Assembly: GCA_040755995.1 (NCBI GenBank)
Contig: JBFMAF010000024.1
Span: forward strand, 309,940-373,939
DNA: 64,000 nt
From: Acidobacteriota bacterium
GTDB lineage: Bacteria > Acidobacteriota > CAIWXX01
Direction of reading: 5' to 3'
Shown: piece after piece, positions 4,700-59,914 of the stretch
Numbering within the stretch: the stretch's first letter is position 1
Layout of the letters: every line of letters starts with the position of its first letter
The notes under the pieces: generated by a model
Database searches by the model: none
Told to the model about the DNA's origin: nothing
The model's input: only the letters and a program-made list of their open reading frames with translations
Translations under genes and position numbers: made by a program

Positions 4700-4968
4700 C
4701 TTTCTTGCGAGCGCAGCGGGAATGAGGGGCCGAGGACTGACTCACACACCCACGGCTCGAACACCCCTCATGCCAGCTCCAACCGTACCATGCTCACCAG
4801 CACACTTTCAAGCGGAGGCGGGATGAGGTAGCATTAATGTCCTGGGGGGATGTTGAGAAGCCGGTTTCGCTCTGCTTGCCTGAACCAGGGGGCGTGCCCA
4901 GGGAGCGTTCGGCACCAGGCGAGGAGGCGGCCCGGCATTCCGATCGACACCCGGCTAGTCACGACTGG

Positions 4969-7710
4969 ATGAAGCAAATGGAAACGGGTCCATCACGCAC
5001 TCCGATCTTCGTGTTCGATATCTGGGGATGCCGCGGCTCGCGCAATCTGGAGCCGGGGTCGTCGCGACTGGGCACGCGGACGCCCTGCTACTCCGTCCTC
5101 GGCAGGGAAGAGCTCCTCGTTTTCGACGCGGGCCGCGGACTCGCCGCGCTCGGCATCGCGATGAAGCAGGGCGTCCGGTATCAGAACGTCTCGCATATTC
5201 ACCTGCTAGTGAGCCACGCTCACATGGATCACTGGGAGGGGCTCAAGGATGTCGACTGGTTCTGGCTGAAGGACCGGCCCCTGGAAGTGACGCTCCATGG
5301 GCCGTCGGAAGCAGTCGAGGCCGCTCGCGCGGCATTCGCTCATCCGTCCTACGTTCCGCTGGAACAACTGGCCTCCGGCACCAACGTGCGCTTCGACGTG
5401 GATGCTCTGAAGGCCGGAGATGAGCGCGATCTCGGTTCGTTCCGCCTCAAGACGGCGGCTCTCAACCATTACAGCGGCAGCGGCCCCACCAAACGCATGC
5501 TGGACGCACTGGGATTCCGCGCTGAAGGGAAGGATGGGCCCGTCGTTTCCTATGTCTCGGATCACGAGCCATCGCCCAGCCATGCCGCGGATGAGGCCCG
5601 GCTGGTGACGGGCGCCTCGCTCATCGTGCTCGACGCTCACTATGCGAACATCTCCGAGCATTCATACGGACACGGGTCGATCGAGTACGCAGCGCGGATC
5701 GCGCGCTCGTATCCGGACACCCTGGTCATGGCCAGCCACATCGGCTCGCTTCTGAGCGACGAGTCCATCATCGAGTCGGTCCTCCGCCACGCCCAGGGCG
5801 TCGCCAATTTCCGGCTCTCGCGCGAGGGGGATTCGTATTTCTGGAACTGGCGGGAGCAGAAGTTCATCACGCACGGACAGCCCCCAGCCGTCTCCGTCGG
5901 ATCAGACGGCACACCGAGGCGGCCTTTCCCGAAGGGCGGTCTCGCGACGCCGGAAGACCTCCATATCCTCAGGCACGAGCTGAAGACCCCGATCAATCAG
6001 ATCATGGGCTATTCGGAGCTCATCGAGGAGGAGATGGAGGACAAGGGCGAATCATCGTACACCGCCGACCTGCGGAAGATCCACAAGGCCTCCCAGCAGC
6101 TGCTATACCTGGTCGATCAGATCCAGCTGCCTGACTCGGCCCCCGGCGCGCCGCCGCCGGTTCCGCAGCATTCAACCGGACTGGAACAGGCGACAGCCGA
6201 GATCGGGACCGACGACGAAGCCGCTGTCGCTCTTCCGGCGGATTACGATCAGAATGGAGCACCTGGCGAGCACGTGCTTGTGGTCGACGACAACGAGCTG
6301 AACCTTGACATGCTGTCGCGACGGCTGAAGGGGCGGGGCTACCGCGTCTCGGTTGCGAGCGACGGGCAGCAGGCGTTCGAGAAGGTGAATGCGGACCGGT
6401 TCGACGCGATCCTCCTGGATATAATGATGCCCGGCATCAGCGGGCTTGACGTGCTGAAGGCGCTGCGCAAGACGTATACTCCGGCCGACCTGCCGGTCAT
6501 CATGGCCACGGCGAGGGATCAGAGCGAGGACATCGTGGAGGCGCTGAAGCTCGGCGCAAACGACTACGTCACCAAGCCGCTCGATTTTCCCGTCGTCGTG
6601 GCGCGCCTCCGAACCCACCTCTCGCTGAAGAAGGCCAGGGATCGTGTGAACCGCCTGGTGGAAGGGTTGGAGGTCAGGAATCGATTCATACGAAAAACGT
6701 TCGGGCGGTATCTGAGCGACGACGTGGTAGCGAGTCTGCTGGAGAGTCCGGAGGGGCTCAAGCTTGGCGGCGACCGCCGCGTTGTGACCATGCTCATGGC
6801 CGACCTCCGAGGCTTCACCTCGATGACGCATGGGATGAACCCCGAGCTGGTCATGAGAGTCCTCAACAACTACCTGGGGACCATGGCGCACGTCATCACC
6901 AAGCATCGAGGGACAATTGACGAGTTCCTCGGCGACGGCATTCTGGCGCTGTTCGGGGCGCCGATTCAGGCTGAGGACGACCCGCGGCGCGCCCTCGCAT
7001 GTGCGCTCGAAATGCAGGTGGCGATCGAGGCGGTGAATGAACACAATGCGGCCGAGGGGCTGCCGTCGATCGACATGGGCGTCGCACTGAACACGGGCGA
7101 GGTCGTCGTTGGCAACATCGGATCAGAGACGCGGGCCAAGTACGGAGTGGTGGGTAGCCAGGTGAACCTGAGCGGGCGAATCGAGTCGTTCACAGTCGGC
7201 GGCCAGATTCTGATGACTGACGCCACACTGCAGGCGGCCGGCCGTGACGTGCACGTGGGGAAGGCGCTGGCGCTGAACGCGAAGGGCTTCAAGGAACCAG
7301 TGCGCGTCTACGAGCTCGTGGGACTCGGCGCGCCTTACAACATCTTCCTCCCGCAGCGGAAGGACGCGCCGGTCCAGCTCTCGCAGGAGATCCCCGTTCT
7401 TTGCTGGGTGCTGAGCGACAAGCTGATCGACACGGATGTATTCGAGGGGTTCATTACCGCATTGTCGCCCAGGGGTGGTGAGATGCGGTCTCTGGCCAGC
7501 CTGGAGCCTATGACCAACCTCAAGCTCCGCTTTGCCGGTGATCGTGAGAAGGTGCTCGATTCCGATATCTACGTCAAGGTGACATGTGCCGACGAGACGG
7601 CCCACGAACGGCTGAGCTTCCGCTTTACTTCGGCGCGGCCCGATGTGCTCGAATATATCCGGCAGCTTCGCGAGAACAACGGCCGGTTGCCTGGGGAGCC
7701 AGCACGCTAA
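4969..7710 (+). CDS. Fusion of MBL-fold hydrolase, HisKA, REC, class III nucleotidyl cyclase (Cya2-like) and a degenerate PilZ-like tail
   Basis: WGCRGS and SHAHMDH (HxHxDH); HELKTPINQIMGYSEL; VVDD..LLDIMMP..TKP; ADLRGFT, DEFLGDG, KYGVVGSQVNLSGR. Start uncertain (4837, 4969 or 4978). Confidence 0.88.
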   Translation: MKQMETGPSRTPIFVFDIWGCRGSRNLEPGSSRLGTRTPCYSVLGREELLVFDAGRGLAALGIAMKQGVRYQNVSHIHLLVSHAHMDHWEGLKDVDWFWLKDRPLEVTLHGPSEAVEAARAAFAHPSYVPLEQLASGTNVRFDVDALKAGDERDLGSFRLKTAALNHYSGSGPTKRMLDALGFRAEGKDGPVVSYVSDHEPSPSHAADEARLVTGASLIVLDAHYANISEHSYGHGSIEYAARIARSYPDTLVMASHIGSLLSDESIIESVLRHAQGVANFRLSREGDSYFWNWREQKFITHGQPPAVSVGSDGTPRRPFPKGGLATPEDLHILRHELKTPINQIMGYSELIEEEMEDKGESSYTADLRKIHKASQQLLYLVDQIQLPDSAPGAPPPVPQHSTGLEQATAEIGTDDEAAVALPADYDQNGAPGEHVLVVDDNELNLDMLSRRLKGRGYRVSVASDGQQAFEKVNADRFDAILLDIMMPGISGLDVLKALRKTYTPADLPVIMATARDQSEDIVEALKLGANDYVTKPLDFPVVVARLRTHLSLKKARDRVNRLVEGLEVRNRFIRKTFGRYLSDDVVASLLESPEGLKLGGDRRVVTMLMADLRGFTSMTHGMNPELVMRVLNNYLGTMAHVITKHRGTIDEFLGDGILALFGAPIQAEDDPRRALACALEMQVAIEAVNEHNAAEGLPSIDMGVALNTGEVVVGNIGSETRAKYGVVGSQVNLSGRIESFTVGGQILMTDATLQAAGRDVHVGKALALNAKGFKEPVRVYELVGLGAPYNIFLPQRKDAPVQLSQEIPVLCWVLSDKLIDTDVFEGFITALSPRGGEMRSLASLEPMTNLKLRFAGDREKVLDSDIYVKVTCADETAHERLSFRFTSARPDVLEYIRQLRENNGRLPGEPAR

Positions 7711-7955: not shown

Positions 7956-10034
7956 ATGGAATCCGTGACACTCGACGATGCCCGGCGCAACGACGTGGTG
8001 GCGGCGCTCGGGAAATGCCCGCTCTTCCGCGCGCTCAAGGCTGAGCACTTCCCTCAGATTATCAACATTGGTGAGCTCTACCAGTATGATCCGGAGGAGG
8101 TGATCATACGGCAGGGAGATCCCTCTGATTCGTTCTTCGTGATTGTGGATGGTGAGGTATCCGTGAGAGATGCCAAGCCCGACGGCGAGTACATAGAGCT
8201 CGGGCGAATGCCCGCGAAGAGCAGCGTCGGCGAGATCGGCCTGTTGTTGGATGAGCCTCGGACTGCCACCGTGGTGGCCACTCAGCAGGCGGTGGTGTTG
8301 AAGTTCGGCGCGAAGGCCTTCCATGTCATGTTCCAGAAGATCCCGGATTTCGGCGTGGGGGTTAGCCGCGGGCTGGCCCACCGGCTGGAGCAGGTATCGG
8401 GCCGTCGCGTAGCGCTGCCCGAGTACGACACGACGAAGCCGAGGCCCCCGGTCGACGTGCTCAGCCTGCTCCCCAGGGAGCTGTGCCAGCGCCATCGCAT
8501 CCTCCCGCTGCAGGTCGATGGGAGTATCGTCACGATGGGGTTCGTGGATGAGCCCAGCACGCAGGTGATGACCGCCGTTCGCGACCAGCTCGCCAGCATG
8601 GACATCAGACCCATGCACATCAACCTCGAGTTCTACAACAAGATCATGCAGAGCTACGTCGGGCTGGAAGGCTGGGGAGCGCCAGCCGAGGCTGCCCCCG
8701 AGGCGCCCCCAGCTGCACGACCTCAATCCAAGTCGCCTCGGCTGGATGGTCTGTTGGAGAGGGTGGTGGCGGAAGGCGCATCGGATTTGCACGTGTCCGC
8801 CGGCCACAAGCCTCACTGGCGCATAGAAGGCGACATGCAGACGATCGTGGACCTACCGGTGCTTGGCGAGAACGAGGTCTTCGAGCTGCTCCAGCCGGTA
8901 ATGGAACACAGGCATCTGGACGAGTTCGCGGAGAGAATGGACGCGGACTTCGCCTACGCGGTGCCCGGCCTCGCCCGTTTCCGCGTCAACATGTACAAGG
9001 ACAACCACGGGGTCGGTGCGGCTTTCCGTCTGATTCCGTCCAAGGTTCTCACACTCGATCAGCTCGGCCTCCCCGCAGTCCTCAAGAACTTCTGCGAGGT
9101 TCCCAAGGGGCTGATCCTGGTGACGGGTCCGACCGGCTGCGGGAAGTCCACAACCCTGGCCGCGATGATAGACCACATCATCAAGACGCGCAAGGCACAC
9201 ATCGTGACGCTGGAGGACCCGATCGAGTTCGTTCATCAGAGCGATGCCTGCCTGATCAACCAGCGCGAGATCGGGGGTCAGGTGCAGAGCTTCGGCAGAG
9301 GCTTGCGCGCCGCGCTGCGCGAGGACCCGGACATAGTTCTACTGGGCGAGATGCGGGATGCAGAGACGATCGCATTGGCGCTCGAGACCGCCAACACGGG
9401 CCACCTTGTGCTGGCCACGTTGCACACAAACACAGCCATCACGGCGCTCGACCGGATCATCGACTCGTTCCCCGGCGACCAGCAACCCCAGATTCAGAGC
9501 ACGCTCGGGGATGTGTTGAGAGGCGTCGTCGCGCAGATGCTCGTCAAGAAGATCGGCGGAGGCCGCATGGCCGTGTGCGAGGTCATGGTCGTGAACTACG
9601 CCATACAGAACCTCGTCCGCGAGAAGAAGACTCAACAGATCCCCAGCGTCATGCAGACGGCCAGGGGCATAGGGATGGCACTGCTCAACGACGAGCTTGC
9701 GAAGCTGGTGGAGGATCGGAAGATCGAGATGCAGGAGGCCATGAGCAAGGCCATCGACAAGGACGATCTCAACCGGCGCTTCCGGAGCGGCCTGACGCTC
9801 GCCGAGGACCCACCCACCTTCGAGCGGGTCCGGATCATCGCTGTGAGGCCGTCGACTCCGGCCTCCGAGGCCGGGCTGCATCGCGGAGACTACATCGTGG
9901 AATTCGCCGGGAAGCCGACCAAGGAGTACACGGTGGACGAGATTCGAGCCGCCTTCCGCATCGATATGCAGCACCAGCTCGGCATCCAGAGGGGTGACAA
10001 GCGCCTCAAGATTGTCATGGACATGCGCAAGTAA
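7956..10034 (+). CDS. pilT: PilT-family retraction ATPase with N-terminal cNMP-binding and GspE/PilB-N subdomains and a C-terminal PDZ
   Basis: GGAGG RBS; cNMP cassette GEIGLLLDEPRTATV; SDLHVSAG, RFRVN, GPTGCGKST, EDPIE, LREDPD, GEMRD, TLH, AIQNLVRE; PDZ (VRPSTPASEAGLHRGDYIVEFAG). Confidence 0.9.
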   Translation: MESVTLDDARRNDVVAALGKCPLFRALKAEHFPQIINIGELYQYDPEEVIIRQGDPSDSFFVIVDGEVSVRDAKPDGEYIELGRMPAKSSVGEIGLLLDEPRTATVVATQQAVVLKFGAKAFHVMFQKIPDFGVGVSRGLAHRLEQVSGRRVALPEYDTTKPRPPVDVLSLLPRELCQRHRILPLQVDGSIVTMGFVDEPSTQVMTAVRDQLASMDIRPMHINLEFYNKIMQSYVGLEGWGAPAEAAPEAPPAARPQSKSPRLDGLLERVVAEGASDLHVSAGHKPHWRIEGDMQTIVDLPVLGENEVFELLQPVMEHRHLDEFAERMDADFAYAVPGLARFRVNMYKDNHGVGAAFRLIPSKVLTLDQLGLPAVLKNFCEVPKGLILVTGPTGCGKSTTLAAMIDHIIKTRKAHIVTLEDPIEFVHQSDACLINQREIGGQVQSFGRGLRAALREDPDIVLLGEMRDAETIALALETANTGHLVLATLHTNTAITALDRIIDSFPGDQQPQIQSTLGDVLRGVVAQMLVKKIGGGRMAVCEVMVVNYAIQNLVREKKTQQIPSVMQTARGIGMALLNDELAKLVEDRKIEMQEAMSKAIDKDDLNRRFRSGLTLAEDPPTFERVRIIAVRPSTPASEAGLHRGDYIVEFAGKPTKEYTVDEIRAAFRIDMQHQLGIQRGDKRLKIVMDMRK

Positions 10035-10068: not shown

Positions 10069-10725
10069 ATGACCAAGAGATCGTTCTTGTCGAAGGGCGC
10101 AGTGCTGTGGGAATTCGGCGATCTAGCCCGCAGCATCGCCGTGGTCGAACAGGGCAAGCTGGGCATCCGAACGGAGAAAGGGGACGTCATCGGCGTCGTC
10201 CTGCCGAAGATGATACTCGGCGAGACCGCCATCTTCACGCTCGATGGGCAGGCGCCGCGCCGAACGGCGACAGCGTTTGCGATGGAGGACTACACGCAGG
10301 TGACCGAATACCCCGTGCTAGTAGTGAAGGGCATGGTGGAGTCCGGCAATCTCGCGATCATCTCCCAGATCCTGAAGACGCTTACGGGCCAGGTGAGTCG
10401 AATCTGCCTGGTCCTGTCAGGGGCTAACAGGGATCGCCCGGTGATACGTTCGACGATGCAGGGACTGCTGACGGGCATCGTTCACTCGGCGAAGGAGCTC
10501 GGCACCATCACCACCTGGGACGACTTCTTCCGCGCCTTCCGATTCCTGTCGATATTCAGGGACGAGCTGGGCAGGCTCTGCGGGGACTTCATGCCCGGCG
10601 CAGCGGTGCAGTCGGAGACGCTCGACAAGCTGTCGACTACCATCAAAGAGATGTTCGGCGGCGATGACAGCATCGTCTTGCAGTTGGAGCAGTTCGTCGA
10701 TGCATCTCGGGAGAAGGAGACATAG
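10069..10725 (+). CDS. Cyclic-nucleotide-binding domain protein with a helical C-terminus
   Basis: GGAG RBS; LWEFGD..SIAVVEQGKL..LGETAIF..RTATAFA cNMP fold; no obvious Crp HTH. Confidence 0.75.
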   Translation: MTKRSFLSKGAVLWEFGDLARSIAVVEQGKLGIRTEKGDVIGVVLPKMILGETAIFTLDGQAPRRTATAFAMEDYTQVTEYPVLVVKGMVESGNLAIISQILKTLTGQVSRICLVLSGANRDRPVIRSTMQGLLTGIVHSAKELGTITTWDDFFRAFRFLSIFRDELGRLCGDFMPGAAVQSETLDKLSTTIKEMFGGDDSIVLQLEQFVDASREKET

Positions 10726-10825: not shown

Positions 10826-11545
10826 TCACGACTTCAACCTTATCGTGAACCTGCAGCCCTTCCCCGCCAGGTTGCGCCATTCAATGCTGGCGCCGCATAG
10901 GCGGCAGATCTTTGCGACGATTGTGAGGCCAAGCCCGGTCCCCTGTGTCGAGGTGGAGAAGAATGGGCGCAGTATTCTGGAGGCGTTCTCCGCCGGGATG
11001 CCTGGGCCCTCGTCGTCCACATGCAGCAAGACCCCGTTGTCCTGTGCCTGCCAAGAGACCATGACCGTGGAACCGGGAGGCGAGAAGCGAATCGCGTTCG
11101 AGAGGAGCTCCTCGACCACGGTGCGCAGATGCTCCCGGTTGCAGGTGACTCGGACGGGTTCCCCAGAGACCAGGACCAATGACACGTTCCCCCCGCGTGC
11201 CTCATGCAGAACACAACGGAGGCCGGTTGCGACTACCTCGGAGATGTCGAGGGAGCTGGGTCGAAGCGGCTCGATCTTGACGAACCGCTGCATGTCCCTG
11301 ACCGCTCCGTCGATTCTAGCCACCGCCGCGAGGATGCTCGTAACATAGTCGAGAATCTCCCCCTGCGGCTTGATGAGATGCTGGACAAGCTGCGCTCCAG
11401 ACTTGATCGTGGCCAACGGATTGCGGATTTCGTGTGCCAAGCGCAAGACCATCTCGCCCAGATCGTCGGCTGTGAACTCCTCGGACCCGGGTGTCAGTGC
11501 ATCGTCAAGTCGGGCCGATGCATCGGGACCGTTCCTACCAGGCAT
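10826..11545 (-). CDS. Histidine kinase without a sensor domain (HisKA + HATPase_c)
   Basis: LAHEIRNPL; ELLSNAIRFS, DDEGPGI, PFFST, GTGLGL. Confidence 0.9.
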   Translation of the reverse strand: MPGRNGPDASARLDDALTPGSEEFTADDLGEMVLRLAHEIRNPLATIKSGAQLVQHLIKPQGEILDYVTSILAAVARIDGAVRDMQRFVKIEPLRPSSLDISEVVATGLRCVLHEARGGNVSLVLVSGEPVRVTCNREHLRTVVEELLSNAIRFSPPGSTVMVSWQAQDNGVLLHVDDEGPGIPAENASRILRPFFSTSTQGTGLGLTIVAKICRLCGASIEWRNLAGKGCRFTIRLKS

Positions 11546-11689
11546 CCGGCAGCCACCCTTCTGTCGCCCGCCCGGCCATCCACGAGCTGGAGGCTGCCTC
11601 GCCGCGGGGCCACCTGCACGGTGGAATCTCCGCGGCCAGACCGACGTTGCCTGAGAGGAATTGGACGGCCCCGGGTTGCGAAAGGGCGC

Positions 11690-13318
11690 TCACTTCGGAG
11701 CCTCTCCCGGCTGGGCTTGCCCCGGCGGCGGCGCGGAAACCCTGTCCAGCACCTCCCTCACCCTACGCGCCAGCTCCCCGAGCTTGAAAGGTTTCGTCAA
11801 GGCCCCCCCCACTCTCTCATCGATGAGATCCGCTTGCTCGATCCCGTGCTCATATCCGGACATGTACAGGAAGTGGGTCTGGGGCGACAAGGACATGGCA
11901 CGGGAACGAAGCTCGCGCCCCCCCATCTGAGGCATGACAACGTCGGTTATCACAAGTTGCACCGGGGCTCGTGAGGAGCCAAGTATCTCCAGAGCCTCAC
12001 GTCCGTTGCGAGCAACCGTCACCTGGTAGCCGAGGAAGGACAAGGTCTTCTGCAAGATCCACCGAAGCTCCGGCTGATCCTCGACAACCAGTATCGACTC
12101 CTGCCCGCCTCGGGTCTTCTCATCGTGCAGGTCGCACTCGATCTCCTGAATCCTCTCCTCAGTCGGAGGAAGATACACGAAGAGGCTGGAGCCTCCACCG
12201 AGAGCACTGGTCGCATCAACCATCCCCTTGTGCTGCTTCACAATCGTATAGACCGTCGCGAGTCCCAGGCCCGTTCCGCCCGCGGCCAGCTTGGTCGTGA
12301 AGAAAGGCCTGAACACCCTTCCCAGGGTGTCTTGATCCATCCCGATGCCTGTGTCCTGGACGGCGATTCTCACGTAGCGCCCAGGTCTTCCCCACGGGTG
12401 GGTCGCGAGAAAGGCTTCTGTGATTGCCACATGTTCCGTCGAGATGGTGATGATTCCCGTGTCGGGTATTGCGTCATTGGCGTTGGCGCACAGATTCAAG
12501 ATCACCTGCTCCATCTGTCCCCTGTCGGCGACTACCGTCGCGGCCTGAGAACATAGCGCGAGCCGGACCTCGATGCTTTCACGGATGAGCCTGCGAAGCA
12601 TCGGCTGCATTTCCAGAATCATGGAATTCAGGTCGATCACAGCGTCCTGGCGCTCGCGGGGCCTTGCGAATGCGAGGAGTCCGCGGATGAGCTCCCTCGC
12701 CCGCTCGGCCGCACGGATGATGACACGGGTCTCTTCCAGGCCCGATTGATCAGGGGCGAAGCGGGCGCCGACTATCTCGCTCGCTCCCAGAATCACCGTG
12801 ATGAGGTTGTTGAAGTCGTGTGCAACGCTGCCCGCCAAGCGGCCGAGCGTCTCCATCCTCTGCGCCAGGCGCACCTGTTCTTGCATCTGGAACCGGTCAG
12901 TGACATCCGAGTAAATCGACGCGTATCCCACCGGCTGACCGACGCCATCCTGTAAGGGCAGGGCGACGATGTGATGGCTGAACTCCTTGCCGTCGGTCCG
13001 ACGACCGCTCACCAGGCCCCGCCAGACCTGGCCCCGCGCGAGACATTCGCGCGGCCGCTGGCACGGTTCAGCGAGACCCTCATCCCTGAACAAGAGGTGA
13101 TCCTTGCCCATCACCTCCTCCGGGGACGAGGCCACCATCCGCAAGTAAGCCTCGTTCGCATATCGCGTCCTGCCTGCGGTGTCAGTGATCACGACCCCCT
13201 CTGCCAGCTGGTCGAGCACGTTCAGCAGTGCGCTGCGATCCGCACCCCGGACGGAAGCTGTCCTCGCCACCTCTCTGGGCCCCCTTTCCAATGCGGGCTG
13301 CACTGCCTCGTCGTTCAT
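11690..13318 (-). CDS. PAS-domain hybrid histidine kinase (CckA-like PAS-HisKA-HATPase-REC)
   Basis: PAS/PAC; AHDFNNL; NLCANANDA, DTGIGM, PFFTTK, GTGLGL; REC VITDVVMP..KPF. Start 13318 chosen over the ORF start 13609. Confidence 0.92.
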   Translation of the reverse strand: MNDEAVQPALERGPREVARTASVRGADRSALLNVLDQLAEGVVITDTAGRTRYANEAYLRMVASSPEEVMGKDHLLFRDEGLAEPCQRPRECLARGQVWRGLVSGRRTDGKEFSHHIVALPLQDGVGQPVGYASIYSDVTDRFQMQEQVRLAQRMETLGRLAGSVAHDFNNLITVILGASEIVGARFAPDQSGLEETRVIIRAAERARELIRGLLAFARPRERQDAVIDLNSMILEMQPMLRRLIRESIEVRLALCSQAATVVADRGQMEQVILNLCANANDAIPDTGIITISTEHVAITEAFLATHPWGRPGRYVRIAVQDTGIGMDQDTLGRVFRPFFTTKLAAGGTGLGLATVYTIVKQHKGMVDATSALGGGSSLFVYLPPTEERIQEIECDLHDEKTRGGQESILVVEDQPELRWILQKTLSFLGYQVTVARNGREALEILGSSRAPVQLVITDVVMPQMGGRELRSRAMSLSPQTHFLYMSGYEHGIEQADLIDERVGGALTKPFKLGELARRVREVLDRVSAPPPGQAQPGEAPK

Positions 13319-13926
13319 ACTCTTCCCGTTTTCATGGGCTAACAGGATACCTTCAGTATCCATCCCGCTACGTGCCGCGCGGCGGACTCGCTCGTCTGCC
13401 ACGACGACCCGCCCTCCCGGAGGCGGGTTCCTCTCGGTTGCCCCAATGCCCCGGCCGGCATGGCTGGACCGCTCGATGCGGTACCCCGGCCGCATCCTGT
13501 GTACCGCTGCATTCCCGCTGTCCACAGGTCGGCGGCACCCGTCAGCATGGTCCATCCCTGTTAATATGAGCCAGCGCGAGGATGACTGTAGTCGGACGAA
13601 AGCCCTCATGTGCCATATGGCAGAGTCCTACCCGATTGGCGCCCTGAGGGCACGCCCTGCGTCGGCCCGGCCGCGCACGGTGTGCTCTTGCCGAACGAGC
13701 CAGTCTTCAGTCGCATCCAACAATTCTCCCTCAACTAAGGATGATTTGGCCAGAAGGGCCCATCTTGCGCGGTAATGTGGATTTTTTTTCGGCGGATGAA
13801 ACCGGGACAGTGCTCATGAACAACCGGGCATACCCGTGACACCGAGACCAGGTGCGTGAATGACGGGTGCGCGGAGGGCTTCAGACTCGTGAATTGTGAT
13901 ATCATGTGCGGCAGATCACGTGAGAC

Positions 13927-15243
13927 ATGGCCCTCTGTCTAGTAGTCGAAGACGACCCGGACGAGAGCCGGGTGCTGGCAGGAGCGCTTCGCGCGGGTGG
14001 TCATCAGGTCCTGTGCGCGAGGGACGGCCGCTCGGCCTCGGAGATCTGCCATCTCCACCGACCCGAGCTCGTACTTCTGGATCTGGGCCTGCCTGATATT
14101 GACGGGATGAGCCTGATCCCGACCCTGATCCGGCTTTCCCCATTCAGTCGGGTGGTGGTGCTCACCGGGCTTGACAGCGTCCGGGCTTCCGTCGCGGCTC
14201 TGCGCGCTGGCGCCCGTCACTACCTGGTGAAGCCATGGGACCTCGAGGAGCTCCTGCTGATCGTCGAGAGGGAGTCGCGCAGTGTCGACTCGAACGAGGT
14301 GTGTGCCAGGGAGCGGGTTGGATCCGTCTTCTGGGGCACGCACCCCGCGATGACACGCCTGAGGCGGCAGCTGGAGAAGTTGTCCGGGGCTCCGACCACC
14401 CCGGTTTTCATAGAGGGTGAGACGGGGAGCGGCAAGGAGGTCATAGCGAGGGAGCTGCACCGGCTGACTGCTGATGCCAAGGAATTCCTCGCGCTAAACT
14501 GCGCGGCGATACCAGGTGAGCTTCTGGAGAGCGAGCTGTTCGGGCACGAGCGCGGCGCATTCACCGGCGCCGAGATGCGACGCAGAGGATTGGTGGAGCT
14601 CGCACGTGACGGCACGCTCTTCCTTGACGAGGTATCGGAGACGCCCCCTTCACTGCAGGCGAAGCTCCTTCGTTTCCTCCAGGATCATCGATTCAGGAGG
14701 GTAGGCGGTGAGGTGGAGCTCTCGGCTCCGAGTCGGGTTGTCGCAGCCACTCACCGCGATGTCGATGCGCTGGTGCAGGAGGGCAGATTCAGAAACGACC
14801 TGTTCTACCGGCTGGCTGTCGTGCGCCTGAAAGTCCCTCCCCTCTGTGCACGTCGCGACGATCTCCTCCCACTCGCCTACTTCCTCATCCAGACGATTGC
14901 CCGAACCCTTGGGCGAGCACCTCGCCAGCTGACTCCCTCTGCCGAGCAGGCCGTATTAGACCATGACTGGCCCGGCAACGTGCGAGAGCTCAAGAACCGC
15001 CTCGAGCGAGCAACGGTTCTCGGGGAGGGTGAGTACATCCAGCACGAAGACCTCGACCTTCCAGGGAGTCCGCCGCGAGCGACGCAGCGCCCTGCTGCCG
15101 GCAAGACAACCGAGCAGCTCAGCAGGGTGCTGGAGGCGGAGCGCTGGAACATCTCCAAGGCCGCGAGGCGCCTGGGCGTAGAGCGGCACTGGCTCCGGTA
15201 TCGCCTGAAGAAAATGGGGCTCAGCAGGCCGGTCGATCGGTAG
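13927..15243 (+). CDS. Sigma-54-dependent response regulator
   Basis: REC LLDLGLP; GETGSGKE, GAFTGA, FLDEV, WPGNVRELKN; C-terminal HTH. Confidence 0.95.
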   Translation: MALCLVVEDDPDESRVLAGALRAGGHQVLCARDGRSASEICHLHRPELVLLDLGLPDIDGMSLIPTLIRLSPFSRVVVLTGLDSVRASVAALRAGARHYLVKPWDLEELLLIVERESRSVDSNEVCARERVGSVFWGTHPAMTRLRRQLEKLSGAPTTPVFIEGETGSGKEVIARELHRLTADAKEFLALNCAAIPGELLESELFGHERGAFTGAEMRRRGLVELARDGTLFLDEVSETPPSLQAKLLRFLQDHRFRRVGGEVELSAPSRVVAATHRDVDALVQEGRFRNDLFYRLAVVRLKVPPLCARRDDLLPLAYFLIQTIARTLGRAPRQLTPSAEQAVLDHDWPGNVRELKNRLERATVLGEGEYIQHEDLDLPGSPPRATQRPAAGKTTEQLSRVLEAERWNISKAARRLGVERHWLRYRLKKMGLSRPVDR

Positions 15244-15317
15244 CCACTTTCTCCAGTTCCCCCGGCCGGATTCTCCAATTGCTCCACTAGCCGCCTGAGA
15301 AATCCTGGATGTCGATC

Positions 15318-15333
15318 TGGCATCCGGCATGCA
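15318..15333 (+). promoter_or_regulatory. Candidate sigma-54 (-24/-12) promoter
   Basis: TGGCATCCGGCATGCA has GG-N10-GC spacing and sits directly downstream of a sigma-54 activator gene. Confidence 0.45.
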
Positions 15334-15345
15334 GGGGGTGCGTGC

Positions 15346-16554
15346 GTGACCCGAGTGCTGATCGTGGATGACGAGGCGGAGCTGGTCCGCAACATCGCCA
15401 ACTACCTTGGGTCCTTCGGCGACGAGTTCAGGGTCTCCACGGCTCTTACCGGCGAGGACGCGTTGTTGATTCTGAAGCGCGGCTCCGTGGACGTCCTGGT
15501 GACAGATGTGAGGCTCCCTGCGATGGATGGACTCGATCTCCTCCGGCGCACGATGGACCTGAGCCCCAACACCAGGGTGCTTGTGATGACGGCGTTCGCT
15601 TCCCCTGATCTGCGAAGCCTGGCGCTCCGAGAAGGAGCTCAGAGATTCATCGAGAAACCGCTGGATCTCGACGATCTTCGCAAAGCCGTCCATGAGGCCA
15701 TGGACCTCGGTCGGGGTTGGACAGGACAGGTGGGTCACCTCGACATGTTCGACGTCGCGCAGATCATGGCCCTGAGCAGGAAGGACAGGACGATCCAGGT
15801 TTCGTGCCAGCGCGAGAAAGGGGTCCTGCGCTTCGCTGAGGGGTCGCTGCTGCACGCCTCCGTAGGCGATCTCGAAGGTGTCAAAGCCTTCTACCGCATG
15901 GTGGATTGGGTCGGCGGGAGATTCGAAGAAATCGAAGGTGATGCCGCCGCGAGGTACCAGTGTAACGTGGATCTTCCGCTGACACACCTCCTGATGGAGG
16001 CTGCACGACTTCGAGATGAGCAACACGGCTCCCGGAGGCGGCCTGGAGCCGAGGAGGGATTGCGCGGCACCGGCCAGGAGGTGCGTACGCTACTCCAGGA
16101 GCTGGAATCTGCGCCGGTCGCGGTGGCCGGTGACTCTCATATACCAGAAAAGGAGGAACGACCGATGGCGCTCAAGGATCATTTCAACGAGTTGGCCGCA
16201 GTCGAGGGGTTCAGGGGTCTCGCAGTGTTCTCGCCCAACGGGGAGATGCTCGATGGTATCGTATCCGGCAAGTTCGACATCAAGGCGGCCGGGATGTTCG
16301 CGAACAACGCTCTTCTGAACGCGCAGAAGGCGACGGACCAGATGGGAGTAGGGCGAGGCAACCTGATGCAGATCCGTGCCCCGCAGGCGGTGGTGATCAT
16401 GCGGTGCCTCAACGAGGCGCCGGAGTTCTCCCAGACCGTGCCGGGGAAGGCACACTTCCACACAGTAGTCGTCTTGGACCCGGAGGGGAACACGGGGCTT
16501 GCGTCAATGCTACTGGACAAGACCGTGACCAAGATGACGGCAGAGCTTCGCTAG
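15346..16554 (+). CDS. REC + DUF4388 (PatA-N-like) + C-terminal roadblock/LC7-like domain protein
   Basis: REC (VDDE, VTDVRLP, EKP); GQVGHLDMFDVAQIM..G.LRFAEGSLLHA..HLLMEAARLRDE; separate C-terminal domain from MALKDH. Confidence 0.85.
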   Translation: MTRVLIVDDEAELVRNIANYLGSFGDEFRVSTALTGEDALLILKRGSVDVLVTDVRLPAMDGLDLLRRTMDLSPNTRVLVMTAFASPDLRSLALREGAQRFIEKPLDLDDLRKAVHEAMDLGRGWTGQVGHLDMFDVAQIMALSRKDRTIQVSCQREKGVLRFAEGSLLHASVGDLEGVKAFYRMVDWVGGRFEEIEGDAAARYQCNVDLPLTHLLMEAARLRDEQHGSRRRPGAEEGLRGTGQEVRTLLQELESAPVAVAGDSHIPEKEERPMALKDHFNELAAVEGFRGLAVFSPNGEMLDGIVSGKFDIKAAGMFANNALLNAQKATDQMGVGRGNLMQIRAPQAVVIMRCLNEAPEFSQTVPGKAHFHTVVVLDPEGNTGLASMLLDKTVTKMTAELR

Positions 16555-22842: not shown

Positions 22843-22968
22843 TTCTTGTCGGGTGAACTCGGAAGCCACTATGAGAAGTGCACGTGGATATGATAGTTTT
22901 AAGATTGCGAAAAGGGAAGGGGACTTCCCATGGTGCGTGCTGCAAACCGACGTGAACGTTGAGTGCCG

Positions 22969-24552
22969 ATGCCATATCTGATCCTCAATCCAGGGACCTC
23001 TAACGAGCAATCCTTCCAGCTCAAGACCGGGGCGAACACCATCGGCAGGGACATGGAGAACGACATCGTCATCCTGCAGACGACATTGTCGCGCCGCCAC
23101 GCCCGGATCGATGTGACTGCCGACCGAGTATTCGTCACGGACCTGCAGAGCCGCAACGGGACGTTCGTGAACGACGTCAAGATCGATCAGAGGGAGGTTC
23201 GCAACGGGGATCTCATCCGCTGCGGCAGCTCTGTGATGAGGTTCACCGAGGGGCAGCGGATCGAGAAGGAGCTCAAGTCCACAGGGGCATCCTCGCTGGG
23301 CGAGCTGCTGATCAAGGACTCGATCGACATCCACGGCACCGTCCTGAGGCTGAAGCAGAAGGACGAGACCAGCCGGAGCGTCGACATGCTGCGCGTCCTT
23401 CTCAAGGTGAGCGAGCTCCTCTCATCTCCCGAGAACATCGACACGATCCTGGGTAGCACCCTGGACCTCTTGTTCGCGATCGTGGACGTCGATCGCGGAG
23501 CGATCTACCTGCTCGACGACAAGACCGGCGACCTGATTCCTGCCGCGGTGAAGCTGGCGCCCGGGCTCGACCCGAACCGGCCGTTCTCCAGCCGGCACAT
23601 CCTCAACCATGTGCTCGAGAAGGGGATTGGTGTCCTGAGCTCCGATGCGGTGGTCGACACGCGTTTCGCCGGGGCTGCCTCGATTCTGGATCAGTCGATA
23701 CATTCCTCCATGTGCGTCCCTCTCAAGTGCCGCGACAAGACCACAGGCGTTCTGTACGTGGACAATCTCATCCGTTCGGACCTGTTCGCCGAAGCGGATC
23801 TGGAGTTCCTCAGCGGCTTTGCAAATCAGGCGGCCGTCGCCATCGAGAACTCCCGGTTGTACCGGAGAATCGAAGAGGATGCTATCGCTCGCAATCGCCT
23901 TCTTCGCTTCTTTCCCCGCGCGGTCATCAACAAGCTGATGGAATCCAAGGATCTCGGCCTGGGCTCAGTCGACGCAGACGTCACGATCCTGTTCTCCGAC
24001 ATATGCAGTTTTACAGAGACCTCCTCGACGATGGAGCCACGACAGGTAGTTGATCTTCTGAACGACTACTTCCCTGTGATGGCCGAGATCGTGTTCCGCC
24101 ACGGCGGCACGCTGGAGAAGTACATCGGAGACGCTTTGATGGCTATCTGGGGAGCGCCGTTTCAGGATCCCGAGGACGCTGATCGCGCCCTGGGGGCGGC
24201 CATCGAGATGCAGCACGCGCTGAGGCAGCTCAACCGGAAATTGGTGGAGTGCGGAAGGGTCGAGATACACATCCACATCGGCTTGAACAGCGGCACGGTG
24301 GCCGCGGGCAACATCGGCTCGGCAGACTACATCCAGTATGCCGCCATAGGAGATGCTACCAACGTGGCGAGCCGAGTCTGCTCGGCGGCTCAGAGGGACG
24401 AAGTGCTCGTTTCCCAGGAGACGTACGCCAAGCTGACGAACAAGTCACTGCCCTTCGAGTCCCTTCCGCCTACGATGGTGAAGGGCAAAGACAAGCCGCT
24501 CCAGCTCCATCGCATCCGATGGGATCTCGTGCCGAAGGTGAGCAGCCAATGA
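22969..24552 (+). CDS. FHA-GAF-class III adenylate cyclase (CyaD-like architecture)
   Basis: FHA (IGR..SRRHA..SRNGTFVN); GAF (MCVPL..GVLYVD..ANQAAVAIEN); cyclase FSDI..EKYIGDA..IGDATNVASR. Confidence 0.92.
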   Translation: MPYLILNPGTSNEQSFQLKTGANTIGRDMENDIVILQTTLSRRHARIDVTADRVFVTDLQSRNGTFVNDVKIDQREVRNGDLIRCGSSVMRFTEGQRIEKELKSTGASSLGELLIKDSIDIHGTVLRLKQKDETSRSVDMLRVLLKVSELLSSPENIDTILGSTLDLLFAIVDVDRGAIYLLDDKTGDLIPAAVKLAPGLDPNRPFSSRHILNHVLEKGIGVLSSDAVVDTRFAGAASILDQSIHSSMCVPLKCRDKTTGVLYVDNLIRSDLFAEADLEFLSGFANQAAVAIENSRLYRRIEEDAIARNRLLRFFPRAVINKLMESKDLGLGSVDADVTILFSDICSFTETSSTMEPRQVVDLLNDYFPVMAEIVFRHGGTLEKYIGDALMAIWGAPFQDPEDADRALGAAIEMQHALRQLNRKLVECGRVEIHIHIGLNSGTVAAGNIGSADYIQYAAIGDATNVASRVCSAAQRDEVLVSQETYAKLTNKSLPFESLPPTMVKGKDKPLQLHRIRWDLVPKVSSQ

Positions 24553-39999: not shown

Positions 40000-40779
40000 C
40001 TACCCGCGCTCCTCCTTCTCCGCCGTCACACGATTGAACATTGCGTACAGCTGCTTGAAGTGCTGGAGGCTTTCGCAGATCAGGGGCTCGAGACTCGGCA
40101 GATCCGCCTTGTTCACCGTGACGTTGGCGCCGTGCAGGAAGGCGGTGTTGGCATCGCCTGTTCTGAGGGTTGAGGAGATCAAGACGACGAGCGTCTGCCG
40201 GCGCTGGACCGGTTTCTGCCCGTTGATCTTCGCGATGATCTTGATGCCGCCCTCGGGATCATCCGGGAATGCCTGGCCCACAGTGATCAGCTGGTAGGTC
40301 CCCGACGACACCTCCTGGATCGCATCGGCGGCGCTCCGTGCCACTTCCACCGAGTATCCCAGGCGGCTCAGGACCCGCGAGATCCCATCGACCTGGCCCT
40401 GATCATCGTCGCAGATCAGGGCCCTCTTCGCGCCGTACTCGCGGCCGGAGTCTTCGGCGGCAAGGGCGGTTTCGGCCGGGTCGAGGTCGCGTCCGAAGAG
40501 AGCCCTCACGGAGTCCAGGATCTCCTTTTTCGTCGCCGCCAGCTCGCGCCTGACATACGCCTGAACGGCGGGCGAGATCTCGTCTCCTGGTGGCGAAGCC
40601 GCCTGGCCCGAGGCAGCCGGGACATGCGGGCTCGACGGAGGCGCGGCCGTCCTGGTCGCATCCTTTTGCACAGTGACGATCTTCCCGCAGTTCGGGCAGG
40701 GCGTCCGGAAGACGCCGGTGGGCGCTTTCGCATCATCGATCTGGATCAGGTTCTTGCAGTCGGGACAGCTCACTCTCAT
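40000..40779 (-). CDS. Zinc-ribbon (MJ0042-like) plus pseudo-receiver domain protein
   Basis: CPDC..CPNC; Pro/Ala linker; REC-like fold with ICDDD but LITVG where the phospho-Asp is expected. Confidence 0.75.
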   Translation of the reverse strand: MRVSCPDCKNLIQIDDAKAPTGVFRTPCPNCGKIVTVQKDATRTAAPPSSPHVPAASGQAASPPGDEISPAVQAYVRRELAATKKEILDSVRALFGRDLDPAETALAAEDSGREYGAKRALICDDDQGQVDGISRVLSRLGYSVEVARSAADAIQEVSSGTYQLITVGQAFPDDPEGGIKIIAKINGQKPVQRRQTLVVLISSTLRTGDANTAFLHGANVTVNKADLPSLEPLICESLQHFKQLYAMFNRVTAEKEERG

Positions 40780-40790
40780 GACGTCCTCCG

Positions 40791-42035
40791 CTACTCCAGC
40801 CAGTCCGGCTTGTTCTCCACCCGAGTCGGGCCGGGGCCCGTCCGTGCCTTGGGCGGTGGGCTTGCGGCCGGCGCCGGAGCGGGACTCGGCGGCGGTTGCT
40901 CCACTTCAGCGCCCGGAGCAAGCTGATCGATCGCAGCGTCCGACCCCAGCCCCTGGAACGCGAGCGCAAGGTTGCCGGGATTGGTGGCGTAGCTCAACGC
41001 CACCTGCTCCTCGATTATCCCCGCCTGCACCATCCTCTCCAGCTCGCTGTCGAACGCCTGCATGCCGTCGAGATGCCCGTCGTTCATCGCATCCACCAGG
41101 GAACGCCCCTCCGACTCCCCCCTGACGATGTACTCGCGCGTGCGCAGCGTCGACCTCAGAATCTCGATCGCGGCGACCCGCCCGCCGCCTCTCTTGGGAA
41201 CCAGGCGCTGGGAGATGACCCACTTGAACGTCTGCGCGAACCGCGTGCGGATCTGCTGCTCCTCGTTCGTCGGGAAGATGCCGATGATGCGGGCGATCGT
41301 CTTGGAAGCGTCGATCGTGTGGAGCGTGCTAAGAACGAGATGGCCCGTCTCGGCGGCCTCCAACGCAATCTCCGTGGTCTCGGCGTCCCGCATCTCGCCC
41401 ACAAGCACTACTTTGGGCGCCTGCCTCAACGCCGCGCGCAGCGCCAGCGAGAAGGTCGTGGTGTCCGTGCCAAGCTCGCGCTGGTTCACAGTCGACTTCT
41501 TGTGCTGGTGAAGGTACTCGATCGGATCCTCGATGGTCACGATATGGTACGCGTGTTTTTCATTGATGTCGTTGATGATGGCCGCCAATGTCGTCGACTT
41601 CCCGCTGCCGGTCGGGCCCGTCACAAGCACGATCCCGTTCTTCTCCTCAGCCACGGCGTACAGAGCCTTGGGCAATCCCATCTGGGCAATCGACGGCACG
41701 CCCGAGGGAATCACGCGCATCACGATCGCGAACGTACCACGCTGCAAGAACACGTTCACGCGAAAGCGCGTCACGCCGGGTATGCTATAAGACAGGTCGG
41801 TTGAACCCGTATGGACCAGTTTCCGCATGGTCTCCTGATCCTGTCCCATCAGACTGAGCGCGATCATCTCGGTCTGATACGGGCTGAGCCTCTCCATCCC
41901 CTTGATCGGCACGGACACCAGCTCGCCGCTCACCTCCACCTGCGGCGGCCTGCCGACCGAGAAGTTCAAGTCGGATATGCCCTCGCGCATGCGAAGCATC
42001 GATTCGAAGATCCGGTTTACCTCCACCTTGTTCAT
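40791..42035 (-). CDS. pilT: PilT/PilU-family type IV pilus ATPase
   Basis: SDLNF, RFRVN, GPTGSGKST, EDPIE, LRQAP, GEMRD, STLH; lacks a clear AIRNLIRE motif; Pro-rich tail. Confidence 0.9.
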   Translation of the reverse strand: MNKVEVNRIFESMLRMREGISDLNFSVGRPPQVEVSGELVSVPIKGMERLSPYQTEMIALSLMGQDQETMRKLVHTGSTDLSYSIPGVTRFRVNVFLQRGTFAIVMRVIPSGVPSIAQMGLPKALYAVAEEKNGIVLVTGPTGSGKSTTLAAIINDINEKHAYHIVTIEDPIEYLHQHKKSTVNQRELGTDTTTFSLALRAALRQAPKVVLVGEMRDAETTEIALEAAETGHLVLSTLHTIDASKTIARIIGIFPTNEEQQIRTRFAQTFKWVISQRLVPKRGGGRVAAIEILRSTLRTREYIVRGESEGRSLVDAMNDGHLDGMQAFDSELERMVQAGIIEEQVALSYATNPGNLALAFQGLGSDAAIDQLAPGAEVEQPPPSPAPAPAASPPPKARTGPGPTRVENKPDWLE

Positions 42036-42186
42036 GGTGTGCCCCCAGTGCTCCAACGAGATATCGCTACTGCCTGAGAAGTATCTCACGACGAGACCGC
42101 AGAGGCAATCGTGGGCGGACTCTCCCGCTCCGATTGTCATCCTCCTGATACACAGCCATGTGGATTCGTGCTATGGTGGAGTTGAG

Positions 42187-55574: not shown

Positions 55575-56486
55575 ATGGCAGGGGGCGAGGGGCCGCGGCT
55601 CAGCCAGTGCGGTCGCGAGATAACGGATTCAGATGTTGAGCATCTGAAGGCAGTCGTTGCTGGGTTTCCGAGGCTGAGCCGGAAGGAGCTAGCGCTGACG
55701 TTGTGCGAGCACTGGGGCTGGGTGGCGGGCACCGGCGCGCACAAGGTGACAGCGTGCATGAGGTTGTTGGAGAAGCTGGAGAAGGCTGGCGTGGTTCGGC
55801 TGCCTGAGAAGCAGGCGCAGAGTGGAGGCAAGAGGTGGAGATCGCCGGAGCTGACCGAAGGGACGCGCGAGCAGCGGGTGATTTCCGGTGATCTATGTGA
55901 ACTTGGGCGAGTGCGGCTTGATCTCACGGGGAGCCGAGCGGAGACCGAGCTCTGCAACGAGTATATCGAACGCTATCACTATTTGAAGTACAAGAAGCCG
56001 TTCGGCTGCGTGCTGAGGTACATGGCGGTTTCGGAGAAGGGGCTGGTGGGATGCGTGCTGATGGCCGGGGCAGCGAAGTCGATACGGGCCCGCGATACGT
56101 GGATCGGATGGAGCGAGCGGCAACGCTTGAGGAACCTGCCGTGGGTGATCGGCAACAGTCGTTTTTTGATCCTGCCTTGGATTCAGGTGAAGCATCTTGC
56201 CAGTCACGTGTTGGGACAACTGGCCAGGCAGGTTGCTGAGGACTGGGAAGGGCGGTGGGGATACAGGCCGGTGTTGATGGAGACGTTTGTAGATCCGGCC
56301 TTGTACGGGGGCACATGCTACCGGGCCGCGGGGTGGATTTGTCTGGGTTACACCAGCGGCAGGGGACTCACTCGACCTGGGAGGCGGTACAAGAGCACGC
56401 GCAAGATCATCTATGTACGGCCATTGGTTCGGGATTTCCGGCAGCAACTCTGTTGGGAGGAGCTGAAAGGGAGGGTCATCGAATGA
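55575..56486 (+). CDS. DUF4338 (DruA-like) domain protein carried inside the IS
   Basis: LSRKELA..LCE.W.W; RYHYL, RDTWIGW, NSRFLILPW..HLASH.L, ETFVDP, GTCYRAAGW..G.T.GRG. Confidence 0.85.
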   Translation: MAGGEGPRLSQCGREITDSDVEHLKAVVAGFPRLSRKELALTLCEHWGWVAGTGAHKVTACMRLLEKLEKAGVVRLPEKQAQSGGKRWRSPELTEGTREQRVISGDLCELGRVRLDLTGSRAETELCNEYIERYHYLKYKKPFGCVLRYMAVSEKGLVGCVLMAGAAKSIRARDTWIGWSERQRLRNLPWVIGNSRFLILPWIQVKHLASHVLGQLARQVAEDWEGRWGYRPVLMETFVDPALYGGTCYRAAGWICLGYTSGRGLTRPGRRYKSTRKIIYVRPLVRDFRQQLCWEELKGRVIE

Positions 56487-59913: not shown

Positions 59914-59914
59914 G

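What the first reader, a model, noticed from the sequence alone, without database searches (positions are those of the whole stretch)
7956..10034. Chimeric PilT: cNMP sensor + extension-ATPase N-subdomain + PilT core + PDZ
Seen: between the cNMP domain and the PilT core lies DVLSLLPRELCQRHRILPL..TMGFVDEP, resembling the T2SSE_N (GspE/PilB) subdomain but lacking the RLG MshEN c-di-GMP motif. The core retains an AIRNLIRE-like AIQNLVRE, and a PDZ domain ends the protein. The phosphate-binding cassette has Arg-Thr, as in cGMP-binding PKG/CNG domains; this is compatible with cGMP but not diagnostic. Established: canonical PilT is about 350 aa with none of these additions. Inference: the cNMP domain occupies the position MshEN holds in PilB/MshE.
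Basis: partly seen in the sequence, partly recalled or inferred. Interest (0 to 1): 0.82.

Follow-up and report, generated by a model that had tools for sequence, protein, structure and literature searches.

The report
Cyclic-nucleotide-sensing pilus retraction motor
This gene encodes a pilus-retraction-type motor (PilT) fused to a cyclic-nucleotide-binding domain, a docking subdomain normally found only on extension motors and a PDZ domain, and it sits next to a predicted guanylate cyclase, so it likely lets cGMP or cAMP act directly on pilus retraction.

Summary
Confirmed. Window 7956-10034 (+) encodes an intact 692-aa protein: cNMP-binding domain, MshEN_C (PilB N1D) subdomain, PilT core and PDZ. 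All four pass curated profile cut-offs (PDZ narrowly). The core groups with PilT, not PilB. It is a conserved family: 82 homologs have the full architecture (named ones are Acidobacteriota), inside a wider PDZ-less family in several phyla. The nucleotide pocket is intact in 68 of 68 PDZ-clade proteins but only 22 of 38 PDZ-less ones. The gene lies outside the pil operons; this genome has four other PilT-family genes. New here: the upstream gene is a response-regulator cyclase whose best structural relative is Synechocystis Cya2, with the GTP-specifying glutamate. Such cyclases occur in 17 of 22 carrier genomes against 46 of 279 others, but shared ancestry explains most of that and the adjacency is not conserved. 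The same module also sits on some PilB-type motors. Best reading: an accessory retraction ATPase likely gated by a cyclic mononucleotide; ligand, direction and partners are untested. I found no paper on it. The scan noted this family before in other genomes, including one truncated PDZ form.

The parts
7956..10034 (+). Gene for the 692-aa cNMP-MshEN_C-PilT-PDZ protein (P0001)
   Evidence: 82 full-architecture homologs
7983..8402 (+). Cyclic-nucleotide-binding domain with C-helix (aa 10-149)
   Evidence: Pfam PF00027 E 1.8e-18; model matches CRP/Clr-type domains at Z 19
8229..8267 (+). Phosphate-binding cassette G92-E93...R102-T103-A104
   Evidence: G, R, A invariant in 79 of 79 rows; intact in 68 of 68 PDZ-clade rows
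8412..8663 (+). MshEN_C / T2SSE_N-like alpha/beta subdomain (aa 153-236), without the c-di-GMP-binding MshEN_N
   Evidence: PF05157 29.4 bits over cut-off 23.1; best PDB hit Thermus PilF, E 0.012; three strands with helices in the model
8664..8720 (+). Flexible Ala/Pro-rich linker (aa 237-255)
   Evidence: pLDDT below 50
8733..9770 (+). PilT ATPase core (aa 260-605): Walker A K397, Asp-box E420/E424, Walker B E465, His-box H483/H490, Arg343/Arg358; no tetracysteine motif
   Evidence: TIGR01420 438.8 bits; best PDB hit P. aeruginosa PilT 3JVU, 353 bits; TM 0.93 to 6OJX; conservation table
9384..9404 (+). Family signature ETANTGH: E477 and N480 stand at P. aeruginosa T216 and E219, both hexamer-interface residues
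   Evidence: alignment; PMC6858323 passages; E 68 of 68, N 67 of 68
9600..9623 (+). AIRNLIRE-like motif AIQNLVRE; R555 equals P. aeruginosa R294
   Evidence: R in 68 of 68
9777..10031 (+). C-terminal PDZ domain of the DegP/HhoA type (aa 608-692)
   Evidence: PDZ_6 and PDZ_2 just over cut-off; DegP E 8e-6, HhoA E 7e-5
4837..7710 (+). Upstream gene: metallo-beta-lactamase fold, HisKA, receiver and class III cyclase of the Cya2 type; Glu at the base-specifying site (codon 6922-6924), so a predicted guanylate cyclase
   Evidence: Pfam; best PDB hits 6FHT and 2W01, E 2.2e-73 for 2W01; PMC5995499 passages
10069..10725 (+). Downstream 218-aa cNMP-domain protein with its own G-E...R-T-A cassette, 34 bases after the stop; probably co-transcribed (inferred from spacing)
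   Evidence: PF00027 E 2.6e-9; Atlas cluster of 156 members, commonest phylum Acidobacteriota

Best explanation
This is an intact PilT-family ATPase with a cyclic-nucleotide-binding domain, a PilB-type MshEN_C subdomain and a PDZ domain, and it is likely an accessory retraction motor of the type IVa pilus that a cyclic mononucleotide would switch directly. Shown: the domain order, a complete catalytic set, a conserved nucleotide pocket, a position outside the pil operons and four other PilT-family genes in the genome. Inferred: it forms a hexamer and retracts pili through PilC like other PilT proteins. Inferred: cNMP binding moves the C-helix, which runs straight into MshEN_C, and so changes docking at the PilM socket that PilB normally occupies through the same subdomain. 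Inferred and weakest: the PDZ holds the C-terminal tail of a partner on the cytoplasmic face. On the ligand I put cGMP at about 0.45, cAMP at 0.35 and both at 0.2, given gating. In this genome the predicted guanylate cyclase next door is the likely source.
For: Core: TIGR01420 over cut-off and PilB far under; top PDB and fold hits are PilT; PilT side of a 100% split. Catalytic residues equal to P. aeruginosa R82, R97, K136, E159, E163, E204, H222, R239 and R294 are kept in 68 of 68 PDZ-clade rows, H229 in 67 of 68. Pocket intact in 68 of 68 plus 4 of 4 PDZ-clade proteins. PilM over cut-off in 47 of 49 carrier genomes searched (two pairs look like duplicates, so 45 of 47). The genome has pilB-pilT-pilC and pilM operons elsewhere. 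Five PDZ-clade genomes each have 4-6 PilT-family matches over cut-off. N1D is described as the PilM-contacting part and the mark of extension motors (PMC11656802 and bioRxiv 10.1101/2021.10.23.465551, passages). For cGMP: the upstream cyclase has the Cya2 glutamate; RT in 64 of 68 PDZ-clade pockets; Cya2-like cyclases in 17 of 22 carriers against 46 of 279 non-carriers.
Against: No binding, ATPase, retraction or expression data exist. The pocket is degenerate in 16 of 38 PDZ-less relatives, and L043 lacks MshEN_C, so neither part is always required. The interface residue E219 is replaced by Asn, so the hexamer cycle may differ. No catalytic cyclase domain lies in the flanks of 47 genome loci or 23 metagenome loci. 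The cyclase co-occurrence is mostly lineage: all 19 carriers and all cyclase-positive genomes sit in one RecA branch; within it 16 of 19 against 10 of 20 (Fisher p 0.04); independent pairs not significant. Only 5 of 44 genomes with PDZ-less or PilB-type forms have a Cya2-like cyclase. The genome also has three Lys-type adenylate cyclases. PilM is probably common in these phyla anyway (no control set searched).
Confidence: 0.58

Rival explanations
1. It works like PilU: a helper motor that cannot retract alone and is tethered to a canonical PilT or another partner, with the cNMP domain setting when it joins.
For: Present alongside 3-5 other PilT-family genes in all six PDZ-clade genomes checked; orphan position; altered E219 site; the PDZ sits at the PilT C-terminus, the region implicated in PilU-dependent retraction (bioRxiv 10.1101/2021.10.23.465551, passages).
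Against: It scores much better against PilT (353 bits) than PilU (234 bits), does not group with Xanthomonas PilU and keeps the AIRNLIRE arginine. An earlier scan note (e1-9972169, not checked here) reports a genome where such a protein is the only PilT.
Confidence: 0.17
2. It is a competitor or signalling ATPase rather than a retractor: MshEN_C occupies the PilM socket or binds PilB regulators and so blocks extension, or it even drives extension.
For: N1D is otherwise the mark of extension motors; the same module sits on PilB-type cores, once in tandem with the PilT form (L035); in two of three trees the family fell outside all other PilT/PilU when rooted on PilB.
Against: Full catalytic set and PilT-specific C-terminal motif are conserved and the PilB tetracysteine motif is absent; with balanced sampling the family nests inside PilT.
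Confidence: 0.13
3. It is an ordinary retraction motor whose cNMP-fold domain is structural or binds a different ligand or protein, so cAMP/cGMP do not gate it.
For: 16 of 38 PDZ-less relatives have a degenerate pocket yet keep the domain; the top fold match is a cUMP-binding domain, tied with CRP-type ones; cyclase adjacency is not conserved.
Against: The pocket is intact in 72 of 72 PDZ-clade proteins at about 55-65% overall identity; both neighbours in this window are cyclic-nucleotide genes.
Confidence: 0.12

Closest known systems
PilT, type IVa pilus retraction ATPase (P. aeruginosa 3JVU, G. metallireducens PilT4 6OJX, Aquifex 2EWV)
   Same: Core fold (TM 0.93), Walker A/B, Asp and His boxes, arginine fingers, AIRNLIRE-like helix, no zinc motif.
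   Different: About 340 extra residues in three domains; E219 replaced by Asn and T216 by Glu; not in a pil operon.
PilB / MshE / PilF extension ATPases with an MshEN N1D
   Same: MshEN_C subdomain in front of the ATPase, with a nucleotide second-messenger domain just before it.
   Different: Core is PilT; the four-helix c-di-GMP-binding MshEN_N is replaced by a cNMP domain; no tetracysteine motif.
cAMP control of type IV pili through Pil-Chp, CyaB and Vfr
   Same: A cyclic mononucleotide made by a class III cyclase controls pili (PMC11656802, passages).
   Different: Vfr acts on transcription; here the receptor domain is on the motor itself, and the adjacent cyclase is of the guanylate type.
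Synechocystis Cya2 guanylate cyclase (2W01), for the upstream gene
   Same: Best natural PDB match, E 2.2e-73; glutamate at the site whose E488K change makes an adenylate cyclase.
   Different: Input is MBL fold, HisKA and receiver instead of a membrane CHASE2 domain; activity not measured.
PilU accessory retraction ATPase (9N32)
   Same: Extra paralog beside canonical PilT.
   Different: Lower score (234 against 353 bits) and a separate branch.

Membership tests
PilT retraction ATPase | Scores over the curated PilT/PilU cut-off and under PilB/GspE cut-offs | tested here: met
   438.8 against 319.1; PilB 135.1 against 675.65
PilT retraction ATPase | Core groups with PilT, apart from PilB/GspE | tested here: met
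   100% SH-aLRT split (quick trees; the careful run did not finish)
PilT retraction ATPase | Walker A/B, Asp box, His box and arginine fingers intact | tested here: met
PilT retraction ATPase | AIRNLIRE-type motif; no tetracysteine zinc motif | tested here: met
   AIQNLVRE, R555 in 68 of 68; zero CxxC
PilT retraction ATPase | Lacks the N1D domain of extension ATPases (canonical architecture) | tested here: not met
   PF05157 over cut-off; rule stated in PMC11656802. It is a variant, not a canonical PilT.
PilT retraction ATPase | Hexamer that retracts pili through PilC | not testable with these tools
   Needs experiment
PilB/MshE extension ATPase | PilB-type core with zinc motif | tested here: not met
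MshEN c-di-GMP receptor | Four-helix MshEN_N with tandem RLG motifs | tested here: not met
   No RLG in the sequence; cNMP C-helix leads directly into the alpha/beta subdomain; definition from PMC5013675 passages
Cyclic-nucleotide-binding domain | Beta-barrel with phosphate-binding cassette G-E...R-(T/S)-A and C-helix | tested here: met
   (the motif definition itself is recalled)
Cyclic-nucleotide-binding domain | Binds cAMP or cGMP; selectivity | not testable with these tools
   RT and RS both occur in relatives; top PDB hits include PKA and PKG
PDZ domain (HtrA type) | Profile and sequence match to PDZ | tested here: met
   Just over cut-off; DegP E 8e-6
PDZ domain (HtrA type) | Binds a C-terminal peptide through a carboxylate-binding loop | tested here: inconclusive
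   A conserved R-S-G-(V/L/I)-T-L precedes the match; likeness to the GLGF loop is recalled; no ligand known
Cya2-type guanylate cyclase (upstream gene) | Glu instead of Lys at the base-specifying position | tested here: met
   TIDEF as in 2W01, against TIDKF in the E488K construct 6FHT
Cya2-type guanylate cyclase (upstream gene) | Makes cGMP in preference to cAMP | not testable with these tools
   Needs assay

The most novel reading that the evidence does not exclude
A cGMP-gated pilus retraction motor. A phosphorylation-controlled Cya2-type guanylate cyclase makes cGMP, which binds this PilT directly and lets it take the PilM socket through a borrowed PilB docking subdomain. That would give bacterial cGMP a direct mechanical output. 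With the matching cNMP-PilB (side by side in L035), one messenger could set both directions of the pilus engine.
Probability: 0.22. Interest if true: 0.87.

Novelty: new variant of a known kind. Interest (0 to 1): 0.66.

Why it matters
How a pilus machine chooses between extension and retraction is an open question. Known second-messenger control acts on the extension motor (c-di-GMP on MshEN) or on transcription (cAMP-Vfr), and the N1D domain is used to tell extension from retraction motors. This family breaks that rule and puts a cyclic-mononucleotide pocket on the retraction side. It is one soluble protein, so ligand binding, ATPase rate and PilM docking can be tested directly. It would also offer a natural test of whether N1D gives a motor specificity for one pilus system. 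A cGMP result would add a rare bacterial cGMP effector.

Tried and rejected
Misassembly or one-off fusion: rejected (82 full-architecture homologs; 22 of 23 metagenome loci carry the module and 19 the PDZ, the rest cut by contig ends). PilB/GspE identity: rejected. Conserved operon: not found; neighbours repeat only within close lineages. The 47 loci screened included six broken, cut or atypical members (L043, L046, L047, L065, L075, L099). Conserved cyclase neighbour: not found; L192 holds only the non-catalytic tail of a Cya2-like cyclase. Family as an early-branching relic that kept the ancestral N1D: suggested, reversed with balanced sampling, so not claimed. Single origin of the module on PilT and PilB forms: the cNMP tree did not join them and did not reject it (p-AU 0.16); PilB-form MshEN_C scores 36-67 bits on the family profile (22-30 for P0270, none for L062) against 19-21 for two ordinary PilB-like genes of this genome. 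Co-evolution with Cya2-like cyclases: not shown after correcting for kinship (67 RecA rows, 6 of 80 genomes had no RecA match and 9 near-identical-scoring non-carriers were not fetched). The strict DNA motif for Glu-type cyclases (4 of 50 genomes) missed real cases and was replaced by protein searches. First locus scan found nothing. The representative search was swamped by multi-cNMP proteins. No sequencing run was listed. Promoter and terminator scans were at chance level. Fold searches listed no rows for MshEN_C or PDZ because other domains filled the lists.

Full report
What is there. Window 7956-10034 (+) is one open frame of 692 residues. Pfam finds four domains over their curated cut-offs: cNMP_binding (aa 43-127, 66.7 bits), MshEN PF05157 (aa 160-219, 29.4), T2SSE (aa 263-588, 165.9) and PDZ (27.4 and 27.7 against 27). 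NCBIfam assigns the core to PilT/PilU (438.8 bits, cut-off 319.1), far under the PilB and GspE cut-offs. The best solved relative is P. aeruginosa PilT (353 bits), ahead of PilU (234) and GspE/PilB (131 or less). The AlphaFold model (pLDDT 88.8, pTM 0.65) has four folded units and one disordered linker, aa 237-255. Its core superposes on PilT at TM 0.93 and Z 38.8. The N-terminal module folded alone has pLDDT 94.5 and matches CRP/Clr-type cNMP domains at Z about 19. The cNMP C-helix runs directly into a three-stranded alpha/beta unit, which fits the description of MshEN_C; the four-helix c-di-GMP-binding MshEN_N is absent (PMC5013675, passages). The PDZ is closest to DegP and HhoA. The MshEN_C piece alone hits Thermus PilF weakly (E 0.012).

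A family, not an accident. A search with aa 1-260 gave 251 hits, 120 listed; 82 of those are 683-713 aa and carry cNMP, T2SSE and PDZ. The few with organism names are Vicinamibacteria; a PDZ-less one is Myxococcales. Of those 80, 41 are cNMP + MshEN_C + PilT, from records labelled Myxococcota, Acidobacteriota, Riflebacteria, Lentisphaerota and Desulfobacteraceae; some labels (Klebsiella, Bifidobacterium) look wrong. PDZ appeared in five loci, all Acidobacteriota. A PDZ-clade motif found 23 metagenome loci, 22 with the module and 19 with PDZ; the rest are cut by contig ends. The window's genome is probably an acidobacterium of a small class (inferred from kinship labels and trees). Its two family-level relatives, 98-100% complete, gave no match to the module, so the gene is patchy.

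Phylogeny. Three core trees put the family on the PilT side of a 100% SH-aLRT split from PilB-like proteins, with the PDZ forms as a 96% clade holding the query (all quick trees). The nearest outside rows are stand-alone PilTs with the same signature motif, partly because I sampled them by that motif. The root moved with sampling: outside all other PilT/PilU, nested within PilT. I therefore claim no order of events.

The engine looks intact but tuned. Mapped on P. aeruginosa PilT, R82, R97, K136, E159, E163, E204, H222, R239 and R294 are kept in 68 of 68 full-length PDZ-clade rows, H229 and D242 in 67. There is no CxxC. Consistent changes: T216 to Glu (68 of 68), E219 to Asn (67 of 68), R123 to Lys and K58 to Arg (68 of 68). 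McCallum et al. place these residues at hexamer interfaces (PMC6858323, passages). The conformational cycle may therefore differ from canonical PilT (inference).

The pocket. G-E...R-(T/S)-A is intact in 68 of 68 PDZ-clade rows of alignment A1 (64 RT, 4 RS) and 4 of 4 PDZ loci, but in only 22 of 38 PDZ-less loci. Selection to bind a ligand looks strong in the query's clade and relaxed or redirected elsewhere. RT does not identify the base.

Context. The gene is not in a pil operon. The genome has pilB-pilT-pilC at C28, pilM-N-O-like genes at C55 and five PilT-family genes over cut-off in all. Five other PDZ-clade genomes have 4-6 each. PilM is over cut-off in 47 of 49 carrier genomes searched (no control set). 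Neighbours are not conserved across the family. The same cNMP + MshEN_C module precedes PilB-type cores in L008-L010, P0111 and P0270, and in L035 the PilT form is followed 100 bases later by the PilB form. A common origin of the two modules is neither shown nor rejected.

The cyclase next door. The gene 245 bases upstream encodes MBL fold, HisKA, receiver and class III cyclase domains. Its best PDB matches are 6FHT and 2W01, which PMC5995499 identifies as Synechocystis Cya2 guanylate cyclase and its E488K adenylate-cyclase variant (passages). The window's enzyme has the glutamate, so it is a predicted guanylate cyclase. The gene 34 bases downstream is another cNMP-domain protein. The genome has two Glu-type and three Lys-type cyclases. 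In 301 genomes of the class of G440, 22 match the module and 63 a Cya2-like cyclase; the overlap is 17 of 22 against 46 of 279 (Fisher p 5e-9). Of 39 high-scoring Cya2-like cyclases fetched, 38 have Glu. Against a link: on a RecA tree both traits sit in one 39-row branch (0 of 26 outside have either); inside it the split is 16 of 19 against 10 of 20 (p 0.04), and independent pairs are not significant. Only 5 of 44 genomes with PDZ-less or PilB-type forms have such a cyclase. No catalytic cyclase lies in the flanks of 47 plus 23 family loci. cGMP is a reasonable lead for this clade and this genome, not a result.

How it most likely works. A review states that an N-terminal N1D distinguishes extension from retraction ATPases, that its PilM contact is inferred from type II secretion structures, and that the two motors compete for the stator (PMC11656802, passages). 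Another paper suggests N1D gives extension motors their system specificity (bioRxiv 10.1101/2021.10.23.465551, passages). I infer that this PilT uses MshEN_C to dock at PilM, that cNMP binding controls this through the C-helix, and that the PDZ tethers a partner. Confidence 0.58. Rivals: PilU-like helper 0.17, competitor or extension-side ATPase 0.13, ungated motor 0.12.

Novelty. Six full-text searches for this architecture or its regulation listed 9 papers; judged from titles and abstract openings, and from passages of PMC10124867, none describes it. The library lacks most subscription papers, and I read no supplements; the architecture tables of PMC5013675 could list it. Databases name the proteins simply PilT. 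The scan itself noted the family before in other genomes; a search for the Cya2 link returned no note. Verdict: a new variant of a known kind, interest 0.66.

Noticed in passing
L035:3516-7535 (-): cNMP-MshEN_C-PilT followed 100 bases later by cNMP-MshEN_C-PilB, with two more cNMP-domain genes within 5 kb; a possible paired extension/retraction cassette. The record's organism label looks doubtful.
   Followed up: partly
L008, L009, L010, P0111, P0270, L062: PilB-type extension ATPases with a cNMP domain in place of MshEN_N; pocket intact in 6 of 6 checked. P0270 has the module twice.
   Followed up: partly
L053:7751-10111 (+): PilB-type ATPase with an MshEN match and a GAF-like N-terminus (judged by eye), divergent from a cNMP-MshEN_C-PilT gene.
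   Followed up: no
L026:286-999 (-): Stand-alone 238-aa cNMP-MshEN_C protein 19 bases after a full-length family gene; the DNA after its stop is repetitive. It could be a titrating partner or a truncated duplicate.
   Followed up: partly
L043:4795-6426 (+): Family member with cNMP fused to PilT and no MshEN_C match; pocket degenerate.
   Followed up: no
L023, L028, L032, L049, L091, L093 and others: Stand-alone PilTs of about 360 aa in Rokubacteria and deltaproteobacteria share the E219-to-Asn signature and form a separate PilT clade.
   Followed up: partly
window 22963-24549 (+): FHA-GAF-class III cyclase with Lys at the specificity site, a predicted adenylate cyclase 13 kb downstream.
   Followed up: partly
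window 40794-42140 (-): A second, divergent PilT-family gene (over the TIGR01420 cut-off), followed by a receiver-domain gene at 40003-40779.
   Followed up: no
window 4837-7710 (+) and G000:C9:15055-17898 (-): Two Cya2-type cyclases with unusual inputs: MBL-HisKA-receiver here, and what reads as receiver-GGDEF-like-receiver on C9 (by eye).
   Followed up: partly
window 10829-16554: Dense signalling cluster: histidine kinase, PAS hybrid kinase, sigma-54 activator and receiver-DUF4388 protein.
   Followed up: no
window 59783-62143 (+): Secretin gene (PF00263) near a transposase-associated ORF at 56255-58000 in a slightly lower-GC stretch.
   Followed up: no
G000:C11:6574-7533 and C10:204498-205460: Two divergent recA copies in the genome.
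   Followed up: no
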